This document shows positions 11,337 to 64,000 of a DNA stretch of 64,000 bases, in pieces (position 1 is the stretch's first letter; every line of letters starts with the position of its first letter). The DNA comes from Lingula anatina (Eukaryota; Animalia; Brachiopoda), in contig CM120647.1 of the NCBI GenBank assembly GCA_051362555.1, positions 13,864,651 through 13,928,650 of the forward strand. Reading direction: 5' to 3'. The notes under the pieces were generated by a model. That model did no database searches and had not been told where the DNA came from. It saw nothing but the letters and a program-made list of their open reading frames with translations. The translations under genes and the position numbers were made by a program.

Positions 11337-11683
11337 CTAACCAGAACCAAATCCTGAACCAGATCCTGACCCAGACCCAGATCCTGACCCAGATTCTGAA
11401 CCAGACCCAGATCCTGACCCAGATCCAGATCCTGAACCAGACCCAGATCCTGAACCAGAACCAGATCCTGAACCAGATCCTGACCCAGACCCAGATCCTG
11501 AACCAGACCCAGATCCTGAACCAGAACCAGAACCAGAATCTTCTGCAGCTTCCCAGTCACAGCTACCAGAAACTTCATTGTAAACGTAGTTAGGGGTGGT
11601 GCAATTTTTCAAACCGGGGTAGTATTGTGATCTACCAGAAAGCTGAAGATCTGCACACTGTCCAGCTGTTGCATTATTCATAC
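11337..11683 (-). CDS. Terminal exon: diverged exon-E paralog plus 66-aa Ser-Gly tail
   Basis: Acceptor gttttag|GT (phase 1); [48 protein letters not shown] then (SG)n...FGSG, TAG at 11337-11339. Confidence 0.9.
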
Positions 11684-14600
11684 CTAAAACATTAATATAT
11701 TATGCAAATATAATAATAATAATAATAATAATAATAATAATAATAATAATAATTATATATATATATATATATATATATATATATATATATATATATATAT
11801 ATATATATATATATATTAAAATCTTCAGTTTCCATTTTTAATGTATCTAAGCAAAAATAATATATATGTATACTGTACTGATAATATAAAGTAAGGGTTT
11901 ATTCAGACATGGGTATACAAATTAAAAATCAACACAAAAATCTGGATTTGATTTAGGAAAATGTATAATGTTTCAGTGCTACAATATTGCTGCTAAACAA
12001 TAATTTTCTGACTTTTAAAGCGAAAAGTGGCAGAGGAATACTTGGACTATAGTTCTTGATAAATAAAAGCAACGTCATAGAAGTTATACACGCGTGATAA
12101 TTCAAAAAAAGGAAAAAAAAATCACCTGCAATAAGATTTTCCTCCGAGATATTCATTTGAAATGCATTGGCAAACTTTTCCAAGCAACCATTGTAATCAT
12201 CATCAGAAACAGTTCCATTTTGAAGCACAATGCCAGAAACAATAATCTTTGCCTAAAAATTAAATGATGGCTTAAATGTAAGACAAAATCACTGCTATTT
12301 TCCGAATATACATATTTAAATCAGCTGTCACATACAGATTCATCTAAACATATAAAATGACATGACGATGAGAAGAGCCCCCCCCCACCTCAAAATAAAA
12401 TGTTCAATCTGAAATCAATGAACATTTTTGCAAAAAAAAAAGTAAGATATGACAAAAATAGTACTAATAATTAAAAAAAAAAAAAAGAATGCTCACCATG
12501 TTCCCAGAAGTCTCGAGGTGAACAAGCGGCCATCCTGGTACCCCCGTAATTACCATTTCATCAGAGTAGCAGGTCACCATCAGCAAGTGATTTATAGCCT
12601 TGGCATGCTCTTCAATGCGCATGCTCATAATTGAACCATACGACATACTGCACTCTTCAGATATAGAAGTGTTCCTGGCACTGCTTGCATTAAACCACAG
12701 CACCACTATATTGGAGGGCGCTAAAATAGAATTGATACCAGTGAGTTATACTCTTTAGTAGCAAGAGATGACCAATGTCTTTGCATGACAAACCATTCGA
12801 TTAATTTTATATCAGTTTGAATTGTGTTTTTGGTTTTCAATCAAGTTTATAATGAACATTCCAAGAAAATAACACTCACCGGGCATACATAAGCCTGTCA
12901 TTTCGGATACAGCTTCCCCATAACTACATGCCAACTTGCCAGGTTCATATGTTGTATTTACTAAGTTCATAGCAGGGCAATCTTTTGTAGCCTCCATCTC
13001 CCATGCAGCTATAGACATATTGGACATTGCTTCCCTTCTGAAATACTCTAACATGTTTTGGCCACAGCGTTCAACATGGTGTGCCAGAAGTGTCGTGTCA
13101 TCATCCTCGGCATACAACCTCATTTTCATCTTCAATACCAAGTTGACCTAAAAAGGTTAGGACATTATGCTTAAAACACTGCTTTCCATAGATAAGACCT
13201 TCAAAATTAACCAACTTAAGTCAGCGTTGGTAATATATATATATATATATATATATATATATATATATATATATATATATATATATATATATTTTTTTTT
13301 TTTTTTTTTTTTTTTTTTTTTTTTTCTGAACACGGAGATCGGAAGTAGTTTGAGCCCTTGACATTAAATTGCTTGACAGTGGGTGTATTTCTTTTCAGCA
13401 CTCGCCTTACACATAATGCCAATAACTTACATAATTGCCTTCTGCCATTGCATACACTCCAGTGACCATGCTGTGAGTAGACAGTTCTCCCTCACACACG
13501 TACTGTGACAACTGTGTCAGGTTTTGGCTCATGTCATTGGTGGCAAACCACATTTTTACACCTTCCTCCAATGATCCAAGGCAGCTTTGAGATACATTTG
13601 TTCCAGCATCAAGCTTGATGTGCTGGGTTACCAAAATGCCTGAAACATAATTTGATGATCAGGAAAATTGCCCACTTTTCCATATTTTACATGTCAAAGG
13701 TAATGCTTTTGTTACAAATTGTTCAAATGTACAGAAAGCATTTAAAATGTTGAAAGGAACTGATTAAACTGCCGTTTTCTTAAATGCATACCTGGTGTTT
13801 CTCCCTTTGGTTCAACATTTGACCCTGGAAATACAAAGATCATTTCAATACCATTGCCGATTCAAGGTCAATAAAATGCACCAACATGTTCAAATGTTTA
13901 CGTGGGTACCAATGGAGCGCTCACTACAATTTACTTCAATTAAGCCTCATCTCAAAGACTGCGTGTATTTTGTCAATAAGTCAAAGTGTGGATACTATCA
14001 CAATACTCTTTACTCTTGGCAAACATCGACTTAAACCTATATCTGAATGGTGTTATGTTTGTCAAAAAAATACTTACGGCTTTCATTGCAGAATCGGCCA
14101 AAGTAGCCATCATAGCATTTACAGGAATAATCAACTTCACCCCTTGGCATACATTCACCCATGACACATCGGTTGGCATGACAAGCTCTTGGCCCGAAAA
14201 CATCCATTTTGAATGTTTACAGTAACTATAGATCAAAAGTTTATTCACTGACTCGTTACTTCTTTCATGGCTTTTTGCATTGACAAGAGTGCAGAGATCA
14301 ATTTTGAATGTAGATAACAAACGGATTCGAACTTACTAAAATGACATTTGTCAGTCTTTTCCTCATAAATGTATCCTCTGGCAGTGCAGTTCTTTAAACC
14401 AGTGTAGTATTGGGATGGGCCAGAACTTCGTAGATCTGGGCATTTACCAGAAGTTGCATTGCCCATTCCTGAAACATTCATTAAACTCAATTAAAAATGC
14501 TCCGAAGTGTATCATTTATGTCCCTTTAATATGACTTGCTGTCATCTATACATGACAGACATTTGCTAACGGCCTTTCAATGACTCGTCTACACTCGATA

Positions 14601-63747: not shown

Positions 63748-64000
63748 CTGAAACATTCATTAAACTCAATTAAAAATGCTTCGAAGTGTATCATTTGTGT
63801 CCCTTTAATATGACTTGCTGTCATCTATACATGACAGACGTGCTAACGGCCTTTCAATGACTCGTCTACACTCGATAAAATGAAATGTTCTATTTATATG
63901 TCATTATCTAATATTTCAATCTTCACCTGCTATTTGCAGTTGCACTTGTCCTATACTATTTTAAAATTATAAACTTAGTGGTGTCCTCAAAGGACCCATC

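What the first reader, a model, noticed from the sequence alone, without database searches (positions are those of the whole stretch)
11337..64000. Hidden giant gene: 16 near-identical 7-exon cassettes (array runs off the window) encode a ~6,000-aa-plus extracellular repeat protein
Seen: the apparent 2.5-kb satellite splices into one continuous frame. Seven exons sum to 1110 nt, the phases close around the cycle, no unit has its own start or stop, and one unique terminal exon carries the stop. It is therefore one polyprotein of (module1-module2-EGF-linker)n, not a cluster of small genes. Known analogy: abalone VERL and sea-urchin EBR1 are giant extracellular proteins built from homogenised tandem repeats. 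Inference: a secreted structural, jelly, mucus, adhesive or gamete-coat protein that repeat masking would likely hide from annotation.
Basis: partly seen in the sequence, partly recalled or inferred. Interest (0 to 1): 0.92.

Follow-up and report, generated by a model that had tools for sequence, protein, structure and literature searches.

The report
Giant repeat-cassette gene of Lingula
A 52-kb stretch of a Lingula-like brachiopod genome holds sixteen near-identical seven-exon cassettes that join into one unbroken 5,986-codon frame ending in a Ser-Gly tail, so it is likely the 3' part of one giant secreted, sugar-coated matrix protein that public gene catalogues almost wholly miss.

Summary
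On the minus strand of 11337-64000 each of seven exon types occurs 16 times. That makes 15 full A-G cycles, plus E-F-G cut by the window end and a last, diverged A-D. One unique terminal exon follows. All 112 repeat exons have AG/GT borders and no gaps. Joined, the 113 exons give 17,963 nt, or 5,986 codons with one stop at the end. The cassette is 1,101 nt (367 aa), not 1,110.

The best protein match is a 290-aa Lingula anatina model whose junctions agree with A>B, B>C and C>D. Exon F is an EGF domain. The rest has no known family.

Each cassette is two paralogous six-cysteine halves plus EGF plus a short linker. The tail is about 33 Ser-Gly dipeptides after acidic residues, a likely glycosaminoglycan attachment site.

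Interior units are homogenised, exons and introns alike. At the diverged 3' edge the introns are randomised but the exons are kept (dN/dS about 0.2).

RNA support is thin. Nine reads in four runs all lie on predicted exons, and their depth fits F>G>A and G>A splices.

Verdict: very likely a real, largely unannotated giant repeat gene, and a new member of a known kind. The proteoglycan function is inferred.

The parts
11337..64000 (-). 3' part of one giant gene: 113 exons, 17,963 nt of coding sequence, 5,986 codons. It continues beyond the window's right end.
57750..63747 (-). Unit 1 (E-F-G of a cassette cut by the window end, then A-D). E 63616-63747, F 63357-63464, G 63071-63103, A 62710-62918, B 62160-62427, C 61778-62001, D 57750-57876.
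   Evidence: AG/GT at every exon
51439..57447 (-). Unit 2. E 57316-57447, F 57057-57164, G 56771-56803, A 56410-56618, B 55848-56115, C 55466-55689, D 51439-51565.
48885..51136 (-). Unit 3. E 51005-51136, F 50746-50853, G 50460-50492, A 50099-50307, B 49539-49806, C 49157-49380, D 48885-49011.
46337..48582 (-). Unit 4. E 48451-48582, F 48192-48299, G 47906-47938, A 47545-47753, B 46991-47258, C 46609-46832, D 46337-46463.
43782..46034 (-). Unit 5. E 45903-46034, F 45644-45751, G 45358-45390, A 44997-45205, B 44436-44703, C 44054-44277, D 43782-43908.
41244..43479 (-). Unit 6. E 43348-43479, F 43089-43196, G 42803-42835, A 42442-42650, B 41898-42165, C 41516-41739, D 41244-41370.
38699..40942 (-). 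Unit 7. E 40811-40942, F 40552-40659, G 40266-40298, A 39905-40113, B 39353-39620, C 38971-39194, D 38699-38825.
35251..38397 (-). Unit 8, whose E-F intron is enlarged to 1076 nt. E 38266-38397, F 37082-37189, G 36796-36828, A 36435-36643, B 35905-36172, C 35523-35746, D 35251-35377.
29924..32142 (-). Unit 9. E 32011-32142, F 31752-31859, G 31465-31497, A 31104-31312, B 30578-30845, C 30196-30419, D 29924-30050.
27369..29621 (-). Unit 10. E 29490-29621, F 29231-29338, G 28944-28976, A 28583-28791, B 28023-28290, C 27641-27864, D 27369-27495.
24822..27066 (-). Unit 11. E 26935-27066, F 26676-26783, G 26390-26422, A 26029-26237, B 25476-25743, C 25094-25317, D 24822-24948.
22326..24519 (-). Unit 12. 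E 24388-24519, F 24129-24236, G 23843-23875, A 23482-23690, B 22980-23247, C 22598-22821, D 22326-22452.
19796..22024 (-). Unit 13. E 21893-22024, F 21634-21741, G 21348-21380, A 20987-21195, B 20450-20717, C 20068-20291, D 19796-19922.
17246..19494 (-). Unit 14. E 19363-19494, F 19104-19211, G 18818-18850, A 18457-18665, B 17900-18167, C 17518-17741, D 17246-17372.
14770..16944 (-). Unit 15; its A-D exons were my reference. E 16813-16944, F 16554-16661, G 16268-16300, A 15907-16115, B 15424-15691, C 15042-15265, D 14770-14896.
12126..14468 (-). Unit 16, the last one; its E-G exons were my reference. Its B-D exons diverge progressively from the core. E 14337-14468, F 14078-14185 (EGF), G 13792-13824, A 13431-13639, B 12880-13147, C 12497-12720, D 12126-12252.
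11337..11683 (-). Unique terminal exon. It holds an E-like three-Cys segment (62% nt identity to exon E), then acidic residues, the Ser-Gly repeat and the TAG stop at 11339-11337.
11340..11537 (-). Ser-Gly repeat coding region (66 codons, 33 SG dipeptides in the tail). Predicted glycosaminoglycan attachment region.
   Evidence: the function is inferred
11240..11245 (-). ATTAAA, a candidate polyadenylation signal about 95 nt after the stop.
   Evidence: read; untested
51609..55367 (.). Non-autonomous transposon-like insertion of about 3.76 kb with 46-nt terminal inverted repeats, in the C-D intron of unit 2.
57920..61679 (.). The same insertion at the same intron position in unit 1, 99.74% identical. 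The insertion came first and was then copied along with its unit.
32143..35250 (.). D-E intron enlarged to 3108 nt (normally 301-302). It contains an integrase-C-terminus-like ORF fragment (my reading of the translation; Pfam found nothing) and a 63-nt tandem repeat at 34277-34447.
37190..38265 (.). E-F intron enlarged to 1076 nt (normally 151), with a 21-nt tandem repeat at 37968-38090.

Best explanation
The minus strand of 11337-64000 carries 113 canonical exons (16 copies each of seven exon types plus one unique last exon) that join into one open 5,986-codon frame. This is likely the 3' part of a single giant gene for a secreted or membrane-anchored, heavily glycosylated repeat protein, whose Ser-Gly tail would carry glycosaminoglycan chains.

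Shown:
- Each 367-aa cassette is two paralogous halves of about 160 aa with six cysteines each (exons A+B, and C+D+E), then one EGF domain (F) and an 11-aa Pro/Lys/Glu linker (G).
- A cassette has 18 Cys and 9 N-glycosylation sequons.
- The part in the window is 659 kDa with 148 sequons and 291 Cys.

Inferred: the protein forms a long, beaded, disulfide-stabilised, acidic (pI 5.0) glycoprotein filament. Its C-terminal (SG)n after 'EAAED' is xylosylated and extended into GAG chains. It would then act as a hydrated matrix or coat component.

Shown: the array is kept uniform, exons and introns alike. Neighbouring units are more alike than distant ones. A transposon insertion was copied along with its unit. 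The 3' edge unit has escaped homogenisation.

Inferred: unequal crossing-over or gene conversion drives this, so copy number would vary between individuals.
For: Gene structure:
- 112 of 112 exons have AG/GT and no gaps.
- There is one stop in 5,986 codons.
- The phases close around the cycle: G ends in phase 1 and A starts in phase 1.
- The public Lingula anatina model XP_013418787.1 (P0001) contains the junction peptides for A>B, B>C and C>D exactly as predicted.

Selection at the diverged edge, last unit against its neighbour:
- Exons: B 95.5%, C 97.8%, D 74.8% identity; terminal exon against E 62%.
- Introns: B-C 91.8%, C-D 57.6%, D-terminal 51%, the last two essentially unalignable.
- dN/dS is 0.24 over B+C+D (205 codons) and 0.18 over D plus E/terminal (85 codons).

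RNA: 9 reads in 4 runs (2, 0, 3, 4).
- Depth appears only in bins that hold exons. The bins lying wholly or almost wholly in intron (13657-13773, 13891-14007, 14242-14358, 11668-12135) are empty.
- The X1 pair gives about 62 + 92 letters on F, 66 on G (2 x 33) and 73 on A. That fits both mates crossing F>G>A at my boundaries; the first mate's last 10 nt are clipped, so they could lie in E instead of A.
- One X7 read gives 23 letters on G and 128 on A, which fits a G>A junction read.
- One X7 read has 75 letters ending at exon E's 5' end and then runs on unlike the stretch, as a D>E junction read from a core unit would.

Extracellular character:
- EGF scores 24.4 bits against a cutoff of 21.5.
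- The Cys and sequon counts are given.
- No internal start has a signal-like segment.

Internal duplication: Cys spacings are 29, 49, 29, 17, 13 in one half and 27, 47, 29, 18, 14 in the other. Only 1 of 200,000 random placements matches this well. The A|B and C|D introns sit at equivalent places, both in phase 0.

Array dynamics:
- Variable sites are 19 of 1101 in exons and 26 of 1375 in introns.
- Neighbouring units differ at 4.6 sites on average, non-neighbours at 7.7.
- The insertion was duplicated with its unit.
Against: - RNA support is tiny. The tool listed no joints because fewer than 3 reads support each one. My junction reading is arithmetic on binned depth, not printed alignments.
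- In X2 all 4 reads (2 fragments) lie on the terminal exon and 3'UTR, and none on the last unit's exons less than 1.2 kb upstream. The multi-copy E-F-G-A exons also have none. That is unexpected for one evenly covered mRNA: roughly 3-6 fragments would be expected on the unique part alone.
- X1 shows the reverse pattern, with reads on units and none on the terminal exon.
- X4 gave 0 reads, which is no test.
- Within the array the substitutions look neutral: 14 nonsynonymous against 5 synonymous, with the same rate in introns and exons. Present-day constraint on interior units is therefore not shown.
- The 5' end, start codon and signal or anchor lie outside the window.
- GAG attachment, secretion and the protein itself are unobserved.
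- The fold models are of low confidence (pLDDT 39 and 49.5).
Confidence: 0.65

Rival explanations
1. The array is a young, neutrally drifting amplification. An ancestral gene had one or two cassettes and a Ser-Gly tail. One cassette expanded recently by unequal crossing-over. The array is barely expressed, and the full-length 6,000-aa product is not a selected, functional entity and may be on its way to decay.
For: - Interior units differ at only 0-15 of about 1,700 compared sites, and three consecutive units have 0 differences.
- Exon and intron variability are equal at 1.73% and 1.89%.
- The nonsynonymous-to-synonymous ratio of 14:5 is the neutral expectation.
- Very few reads were found in four RNA runs.
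- The X2 reads lie only on the terminal exon.
Against: - No frameshift, stop or lost splice site occurs in 112 exons, although so few mutations give this little power.
- The array is old enough to have taken up at least three separate intronic insertions, one of which was then copied with its unit.
- dN/dS of about 0.2 at the edge shows the frame has been under selection.
- Reads fitting G>A junctions in two independent runs show that unit-to-unit splicing occurs (inferred from depth).
Confidence: 0.15
2. The locus is one gene but gives many products. Every cassette begins and ends in the same phase, so splicing could skip whole cassettes. The locus would then yield a ladder of shorter proteins, or transcripts from internal or alternative starts, including a short one that holds little more than the Ser-Gly exon, rather than one 6,000-aa chain.
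For: - Any G donor is phase-compatible with any A acceptor, and any D donor with any E or terminal acceptor.
- The last D is in fact joined to an E-like terminal exon in the model.
- Coverage is discordant: X2 has reads on the terminal exon only, and X1 on units only.
Against: No read evidence of skipping was seen. Short reads cannot distinguish neighbouring from distant joins between identical units. The read counts are too small to show separate transcripts.
Confidence: 0.12
3. The array is an assembly artefact. The copy number or order is inflated or mis-built by the assembler, and the true locus has far fewer cassettes.
For: Units are 98-100% identical over 2.5 kb, which is a hard case for assemblers. 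The older public assembly appears to hold only one A-D unit, inside a chimeric model.
Against: - Units are individually distinguishable. There are 6-7 distinct exon B and C sequences.
- The A-B intron microsatellite lengths run from 215 to 294 nt and nearly all differ.
- Four units have unit-specific insertions.
- Similarity is graded between neighbours.
- I could not lay DNA reads, so this is not directly tested.
Confidence: 0.05

Closest known systems
[quoted passage not shown]
   Same: Both are giant extracellular glycoproteins built from a tandem array whose interior repeats are homogenised while edge repeats evolve on their own. VERL has 3,761 aa and 22 repeats of about 153 aa. Its repeats 3-22 are at least 95% identical, and repeats 1 and 2 evolve independently (PMC2704960, passages read). 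Here the interior units are 98-100% identical and the last unit has diverged.
   Different: - VERL repeats are ZP-N modules (recalled). Here Pfam finds only EGF, and the main modules are orphan.
- The unit here is a seven-exon, 2.5-kb genomic cassette whose introns are homogenised too.
- No gamete role is shown here.
- This protein ends in a Ser-Gly tail.
Human LPA kringle IV type 2 copy-number repeat
   Same: In both, a multi-exon genomic cassette, introns included, is repeated head to tail in near-identical copies inside one gene. The phases let the copies splice into one long protein. In LPA the copy number sets protein size: KIV-2 is a 5.5-kb sub-region that is highly polymorphic in copy number (search listing and abstract starts only).
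   Different: - The LPA unit has two exons encoding one kringle (recalled). Here seven exons encode two six-Cys modules plus EGF.
- Copy-number polymorphism is predicted here, not tested.
- The proteins are unrelated.
Serglycin and other Ser-Gly proteoglycan cores
   Same: Both have an uninterrupted run of Ser-Gly dipeptides next to acidic residues. Here there are 33 SG in the last 66 residues, after 'EAAED'. That is the classical xylosyltransferase / GAG-attachment context (recalled knowledge).
   Different: Serglycin is a small intracellular-granule proteoglycan (recalled). Here the SG run is the tail of a chain of at least 5,986 aa. No homology was tested or claimed, and GAG attachment is untested.
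SEA-EGF membrane mucins and proteoglycans (MUC3/12/13/17, agrin, perlecan, IMPG1/2)
   Same: These are extracellular proteins that combine alpha/beta sandwich modules with EGF domains and heavy glycosylation (recalled). The low-confidence model of the six-Cys module has a beta-alpha-beta-beta-alpha order. The chimeric public model P0002 places a true SEA domain (Pfam E 7.7e-12), a Thr/Pro-rich stretch and what I read by eye as a type-II membrane anchor upstream of one A-D unit.
   Different: - The cassette modules do not match Pfam SEA.
- They do not resemble P0002's SEA domain by alignment (z -0.2 and 0.2).
- Fold searches give only background-level ferredoxin-like matches.
- No Pro/Thr/Ser-rich mucin domain lies in the window.
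- Whether P0002's N-terminus belongs to this gene is unknown.
Sea-urchin EBR1 (egg bindin receptor)
   Same: It is a giant extracellular protein made of many tandem repeat modules.
   Different: EBR1 repeats are TSP1/CUB and hyalin-like modules (recalled), and none is detected here. No evidence of a gamete function exists here.

Membership tests
EGF-like domain (Pfam PF00008) | Profile score above the curated threshold, with the six-cysteine pattern. | tested here: met
   Exon F (35 aa) scores E 3.5e-05, 24.4 bits against a cutoff of 21.5, covering profile positions 1-31 of 32. Its translation has six Cys.
SEA domain (Pfam PF01390) | Profile match of the cassette modules. | tested here: not met
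   No SEA hit at E up to 10 for exons A-E taken singly, nor at E up to 1 for P0001, which spans A(part)-D. The same search does find SEA elsewhere in P0002, at residues 256-326.
SEA domain (Pfam PF01390) | Ferredoxin-like beta-alpha-beta-beta-alpha-beta sandwich fold. | tested here: inconclusive
   The model of half 1 has pLDDT 49.5 and pTM 0.42, with order E-H-H-E-E-H. Foldseek gave 0 matches at E <= 0.001; a SEA domain (2e7v) ranks only 39th at E 0.084 with TM 0.22/0.29. VIA-align's best Z is 8.1 and the hits are generic ferredoxin-like, within the stated background of 7-8.
Proteoglycan core protein with Ser-Gly attachment region | Clustered Ser-Gly dipeptides flanked by acidic residues. | tested here: met
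   33 SG dipeptides sit in the C-terminal tail, after ...DWEAAED.
Proteoglycan core protein with Ser-Gly attachment region | Covalently attached glycosaminoglycan chains. | not testable with these tools
   This needs biochemistry, such as chondroitinase or heparinase shift, or glycopeptide mass spectrometry.
Homogenised tandem-repeat giant proteins (VERL type of evolution) | Interior repeats near-identical, edge repeats diverged. | tested here: met
   The 15 core units differ at 0-15 of about 1,700 sites, while the last unit differs at 46-53. Identity declines across the last unit.
VERL / ZP-N family proper | ZP-N or zona pellucida domain in the repeat. | tested here: not met
   No ZP-type Pfam family appears for any exon translation or for P0001.
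Multi-exon cassette copy-number repeat inside a gene (LPA KIV-2 type) | The repeated genomic unit holds several exons and its introns, all near-identical, with phases that close. | tested here: met
   Seven exons and seven introns per 2.5-kb unit. Introns vary at 1.89% of sites and exons at 1.73%. The frame is open across all joins.
Multi-exon cassette copy-number repeat inside a gene (LPA KIV-2 type) | Copy number differs between individuals or alleles. | not tested
   No whole genome is held.
Gel-forming or membrane mucin | Long Pro/Thr/Ser-rich O-glycosylated domain. | tested here: not met
   The cassette translation is not PTS-rich. A Thr/Pro-rich stretch exists only in P0002's N-terminal part, which is not in the window.

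The most novel reading that the evidence does not exclude
This is a brachiopod-only proteoglycan core of more than 650 kDa, built from a previously undescribed six-cysteine domain family. It is the protein scaffold of a GAG-rich lingulid secretion, most boldly the GAG-dominated primary layer of the phosphatic Lingula shell. Its length is tuned by copy-number variation of a 2.5-kb seven-exon cassette.
Probability: 0.1. Interest if true: 0.7.

Novelty: new member of a known kind. Interest (0 to 1): 0.45.

Why it matters
If the gene is real, it is one of the largest proteins of a 'living fossil' lineage, and gene catalogues miss almost all of it. An exhaustive search of 1.84 billion protein representatives found only one collapsed A-D unit, inside a chimeric Lingula model, and one 85-aa fragment elsewhere.

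It is a clean invertebrate example of concerted evolution acting on a multi-exon cassette, introns included. It shows an edge effect and a transposon copied along with its unit.

It defines a new six-Cys extracellular module. Its Ser-Gly tail makes it a concrete candidate for a proteoglycan core in an animal whose shell has a GAG-rich layer. That candidacy can be tested with long-read cDNA, proteomics and GAG lyases.

It also warns that repeat masking and short-read assemblies can hide very large genes.

Tried and rejected
- RNA runs: no RNA holder was listed by the index. Nine raw-read RNA runs were offered by species label only.
I stopped that line, so D>E and E>F remain without listed joints.
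- Whole genome: none is held. Copy number elsewhere, the 5' end and the amidase neighbour could not be checked.
- ESM Atlas: no usable hit for P0001 residues 1-247.
- PDB by sequence: only 3 chance-level hits, E 0.68-1.
- Structure: a single-sequence AlphaFold2 model of P0001 gave pLDDT 39. Half 1 with a 6-row alignment gave pLDDT 49.5.
- Fold searches: Foldseek gave no match at E <= 0.001. VIA-align wide gave only background-level ferredoxin-like matches, with SEA not among the 50 rows shown. The fold stays open.
- Sequence similarity between the two halves is not significant by BLOSUM alignment:
  - modules A+B against C+D, z 2.0, with 23 of 500 shuffles as good;
  - halves A+B against C+D+E, local z 0.87, 390 of 2000;
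  - the same halves, semi-global z -0.14, 1034 of 2000.
  The duplication claim rests on Cys spacing and intron position only.
- Exon E, searched against longer proteins (77-2000 aa), found no candidate.
- Literature: no paper in the library holds XP_013418787 or LOC106179617. The one held supplement of the 2026 Lingula shell-proteome paper (PMC13425148) holds neither these ids nor six unit peptides. Stored files may be cut, so this does not show absence from the shell.
- Earlier findings of this scan: nothing by place, sequence or words.
- Alternative exon borders rejected: C ending at 15123 or 15099 keeps the frame but disagrees with the P0001 model. An F of 117 nt has no AG before it. An E donor at 14260 leaves no in-phase F acceptor (read).
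- The plus-strand Pro-Glu/Asp frame over 11341-11583 is the mirror image of the Ser-Gly repeat, not a gene.

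
Full report
**What is there**

The window is eukaryotic. From 11.3 kb to its right end it holds a tandem array. 300-nt probes recur 16 times at 99-100% identity, spaced 2476-2555 nt, apart from a few longer spacings caused by insertions. Stop-to-stop frames show that the coding sense is the minus strand.

Reading one unit gives seven exons with canonical borders:

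| Exon | Coordinates | Length (nt) |
|---|---|---|
| A | 16115-15907 | 209 |
| B | 15691-15424 | 268 |
| C | 15265-15042 | 224 |
| D | 14896-14770 | 127 |
| E | 14468-14337 | 132 |
| F | 14185-14078 | 108 |
| G | 13824-13792 | 33 |

They sum to 1,101 nt, or 367 codons. The phases are 1/0, 0/1, 1/0, 0/1, 1/1, 1/1 and 1/1, so G of one unit joins A of the next in frame.

Each exon has 16 ungapped copies, and 112 of 112 are flanked by AG and GT. The order along the minus strand is EFG, then (ABCDEFG) x 15, then ABCD, then a unique exon 11683-11337. Joined, they give 17,963 nt and 5,986 codons, with the only stop at 11339-11337.

No canonical acceptor or donor gives the extra 9 nt.

**Whose gene**

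Exon B finds a single longer protein among 5.8 billion. It is XP_013418787.1, 'uncharacterized protein LOC106179617' of Lingula anatina, 290 aa and 92% identical. Its sequence contains the junction peptides I predicted for A>B, B>C and C>D. After exon D it runs into an unrelated tail.

None of the 16 units is identical to it. Per-exon identity is 91-98.7%, and its last 43 residues are absent from the window.

The same 90% cluster holds a 1,076-aa model, P0002. By eye it has a basic N-terminus, a hydrophobic anchor-like stretch and a Thr/Pro-rich stretch. It also has a true SEA domain (E 7.7e-12), amidase pieces (E 3.8e-73) and one A-D unit. Only the unit part of P0002 is present in the window. 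P0002 is evidently a chimera from an assembly in which the array had collapsed. It is a lead to the 5' end, not evidence.

**How unknown it is**

An exhaustive phmmer search of 1.84 billion representatives with the 290-aa model gave 120 hits at E <= 0.001. Apart from the query itself, only one matches the cassette: P0003, 85 aa, 57% identical to exon B, from 7 unnamed contigs. The other 118 have their best stretch in residues 225-290, the amidase-like tail.

Exon E found no candidate among proteins of 77-2000 aa. Pfam recognises only exon F, as EGF (24.4 bits against 21.5). Exons A, C and E give nothing, and B and D give only sub-threshold noise. The Atlas and PDB sequence searches were blank.

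**Anatomy of the cassette**

The halves A+B (159 aa) and C+D+E (161 aa) each have six cysteines, with spacings 29, 49, 29, 17, 13 and 27, 47, 29, 18, 14. Only 1 of 200,000 random placements is as close. The A|B and C|D introns fall at equivalent places, both in phase 0. Sequence similarity itself is not significant.

The cassette is therefore an old internal duplication of one six-Cys module, followed by EGF and an 11-residue linker.

AlphaFold2 models are of low confidence (pLDDT 39 and 49.5). They suggest a beta-alpha-beta-beta-alpha core followed by an unstructured three-Cys tail. Fold searches return only generic ferredoxin-like matches at background level. An SEA-like fold is a hypothesis, not a result.

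A cassette has 18 Cys and 9 N-glycosylation sequons. The in-window product is 659 kDa, pI 5.0, with 148 sequons.

The last exon repeats the E-type three-Cys segment. It then runs ...DWEAAED followed by 33 Ser-Gly dipeptides to the stop. By recalled knowledge of xylosyltransferase sites and serglycin, that is a textbook GAG-attachment context.

**Is it under selection?**

Inside the array there is no signal. 19 of 1,101 exon sites vary among core units (5 synonymous, 14 nonsynonymous), against 26 of 1,375 ungapped intron columns. For the intron count I dropped the four enlarged introns and the last unit's introns. That pattern is homogenisation, not constraint.

The last unit is informative. 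Its identity to the neighbouring unit falls towards the 3' end:

| Segment | Identity |
|---|---|
| Exon A | 99.5% |
| A-B intron | 99.5% |
| Exon B | 95.5% |
| B-C intron | 91.8% |
| Exon C | 97.8% |
| C-D intron | 57.6% |
| Exon D | 74.8% |
| D-terminal intron | 51% |
| Terminal exon vs E | 62% |

Where the introns are randomised, the exons persist. dN/dS is 0.16 for D, 0.17 for terminal against E, and 0.24 over B+C+D. The frame I defined has been a coding frame under purifying selection.

**RNA**

Nine raw-read RNA runs with the same species label were offered. Four were laid on 11200-14700 and gave 2, 0, 3 and 4 reads. No joints were listed, because the threshold is 3 reads.

Depth falls only in bins that hold exons.
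- The X1 pair gives 62 + 92 letters on F, 66 on G (twice its 33 nt) and 73 on A. This fits both mates crossing F>G>A at my borders; the first mate's last 10 nt are clipped, so they could lie in E instead of A.
- One X7 read gives 23 letters on G plus 128 on A.
- One X7 read gives 75 letters up to E's 5' end and then runs on unlike the stretch, as a D>E read from a core unit would.

These are my inferences from binned depth.

Against a single evenly covered mRNA, X2's four reads lie only on the terminal exon and 3'UTR, with none on the exons just upstream. X1 shows the reverse. The numbers are too small to decide.

**Array dynamics**

Core units differ at 0-15 of about 1,700 compared sites. Neighbours average 4.6 differences and non-neighbours 7.7. 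Units 3-5 are identical over the compared segments.

The A-B intron carries a microsatellite of variable length, 215-294 nt. Four introns are enlarged.

Two C-D introns hold the same 3.76-kb element with 46-nt terminal inverted repeats, at the same site and 99.74% identical. The flanks overlap by about 6 nt. This was one insertion, later copied with its unit.

All of this fits unequal crossing-over or gene conversion, and it argues that the copies are real rather than assembler stutter. I could not lay DNA reads to confirm that.

**Most likely mechanism**

I put the probability at about 0.65 for a single giant gene whose 3' 52 kb lies here. It would encode a secreted or membrane-anchored, disulfide-rich, N-glycosylated beaded chain of at least 16 cassettes, ending in a GAG-bearing tail, with the array length maintained and varied by recombination.

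- Shown: the exon structure, the open frame, the EGF domain, the internal duplication, the homogenisation and the selection at the edge.
- Inferred: transcript continuity over all units, secretion, GAG attachment and a matrix role.

The rivals are a young, effectively neutral amplification (0.15), one gene with many cassette-skipped or short products (0.12), and an assembly artefact (0.05).

**Context from papers**

- The Lingula shell's primary layer is described as predominantly GAGs, and EGF-like is the most enriched domain among Lingula shell proteins (PMC13425148, passages read).
- The first genome paper reports abundant EGF- and VWA-containing shell proteins, and that 21% of genes have no known similarity (PMC4595640, passages read).
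- Neither paper, as far as I could search, names this gene. A shell role is only the boldest reading.

**Comparison and novelty**

The architecture works like abalone VERL, with homogenised interior repeats and free edges (PMC2704960). It also works like the human LPA KIV-2 cassette (listing and abstracts only). It belongs to neither family: it has no ZP or kringle domain.

It is a new member of the known kind 'giant extracellular protein from a homogenised tandem cassette'. It is built from an orphan six-Cys module and is largely absent from public protein sets.

Noticed in passing
window 2569-6726 (-): An uninterrupted 1,385-aa gag-pol frame of an LTR retrotransposon. Pfam finds RVT_1, RNase H, the integrase zinc-binding domain and the integrase core (rve). 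Ty3/gypsy-like is my reading of the domain order. It looks intact and possibly active.
   Followed up: partly
window 7233-9994 (+): Three long plus-strand frames (7233-7796, 8747-9028, 9698-9994) look like exons of a neighbouring gene convergent with the giant gene. None has a Pfam family, and the gene was not identified.
   Followed up: partly
window 51609-55367 and 57920-61679: Two 99.74%-identical copies of a 3.76-kb element with 46-nt terminal inverted repeats and no long ORF, at the same site of two C-D introns. It looks like a non-autonomous DNA transposon that was copied by the array's own duplication.
   Followed up: yes
window 32143-35250: This D-E intron is enlarged to 3.1 kb. It holds a minus-strand frame (32746-33048) that reads like the C-terminal end of a retroelement integrase (my reading; Pfam blank) and a 63-nt tandem repeat at 34277-34447.
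   Followed up: partly
window 37190-38265: This E-F intron is enlarged to 1,076 nt and holds a 21-nt tandem repeat (5.8 copies, 37968-38090). Its origin is unknown.
   Followed up: no
A-B introns of all units, e.g. window 13148-13430 and 15692-15906: A (TA)n(A)n microsatellite makes this intron vary from 215 to 294 nt between otherwise near-identical units. It would be a handy marker for telling units apart in long reads.
   Followed up: partly
protein P0002 (public 1,076-aa model, not in the window except residues ~445-720): This chimeric model fuses an anchor-like N-terminus, a Thr/Pro-rich stretch and a SEA domain with amidase exons and one A-D unit. The unit is preceded by '...DKKTP', which resembles the G linker's '...GETP'. 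It may be the diverged first unit of the array.
   Followed up: partly
protein P0003 (85 aa, unnamed ENA contigs): This is the only other relative of the cassette in 1.84 billion representatives. It is 57% identical to exon B and was seen on 7 contigs, which hints at a second repeated array in a related organism or a paralogous locus.
   Followed up: no
window 11341-11583 (+): An open plus-strand frame of Pro-Glu/Pro-Asp repeats is simply the antisense reading of the Ser-Gly repeat. A gene caller could mistake it for a gene.
   Followed up: yes
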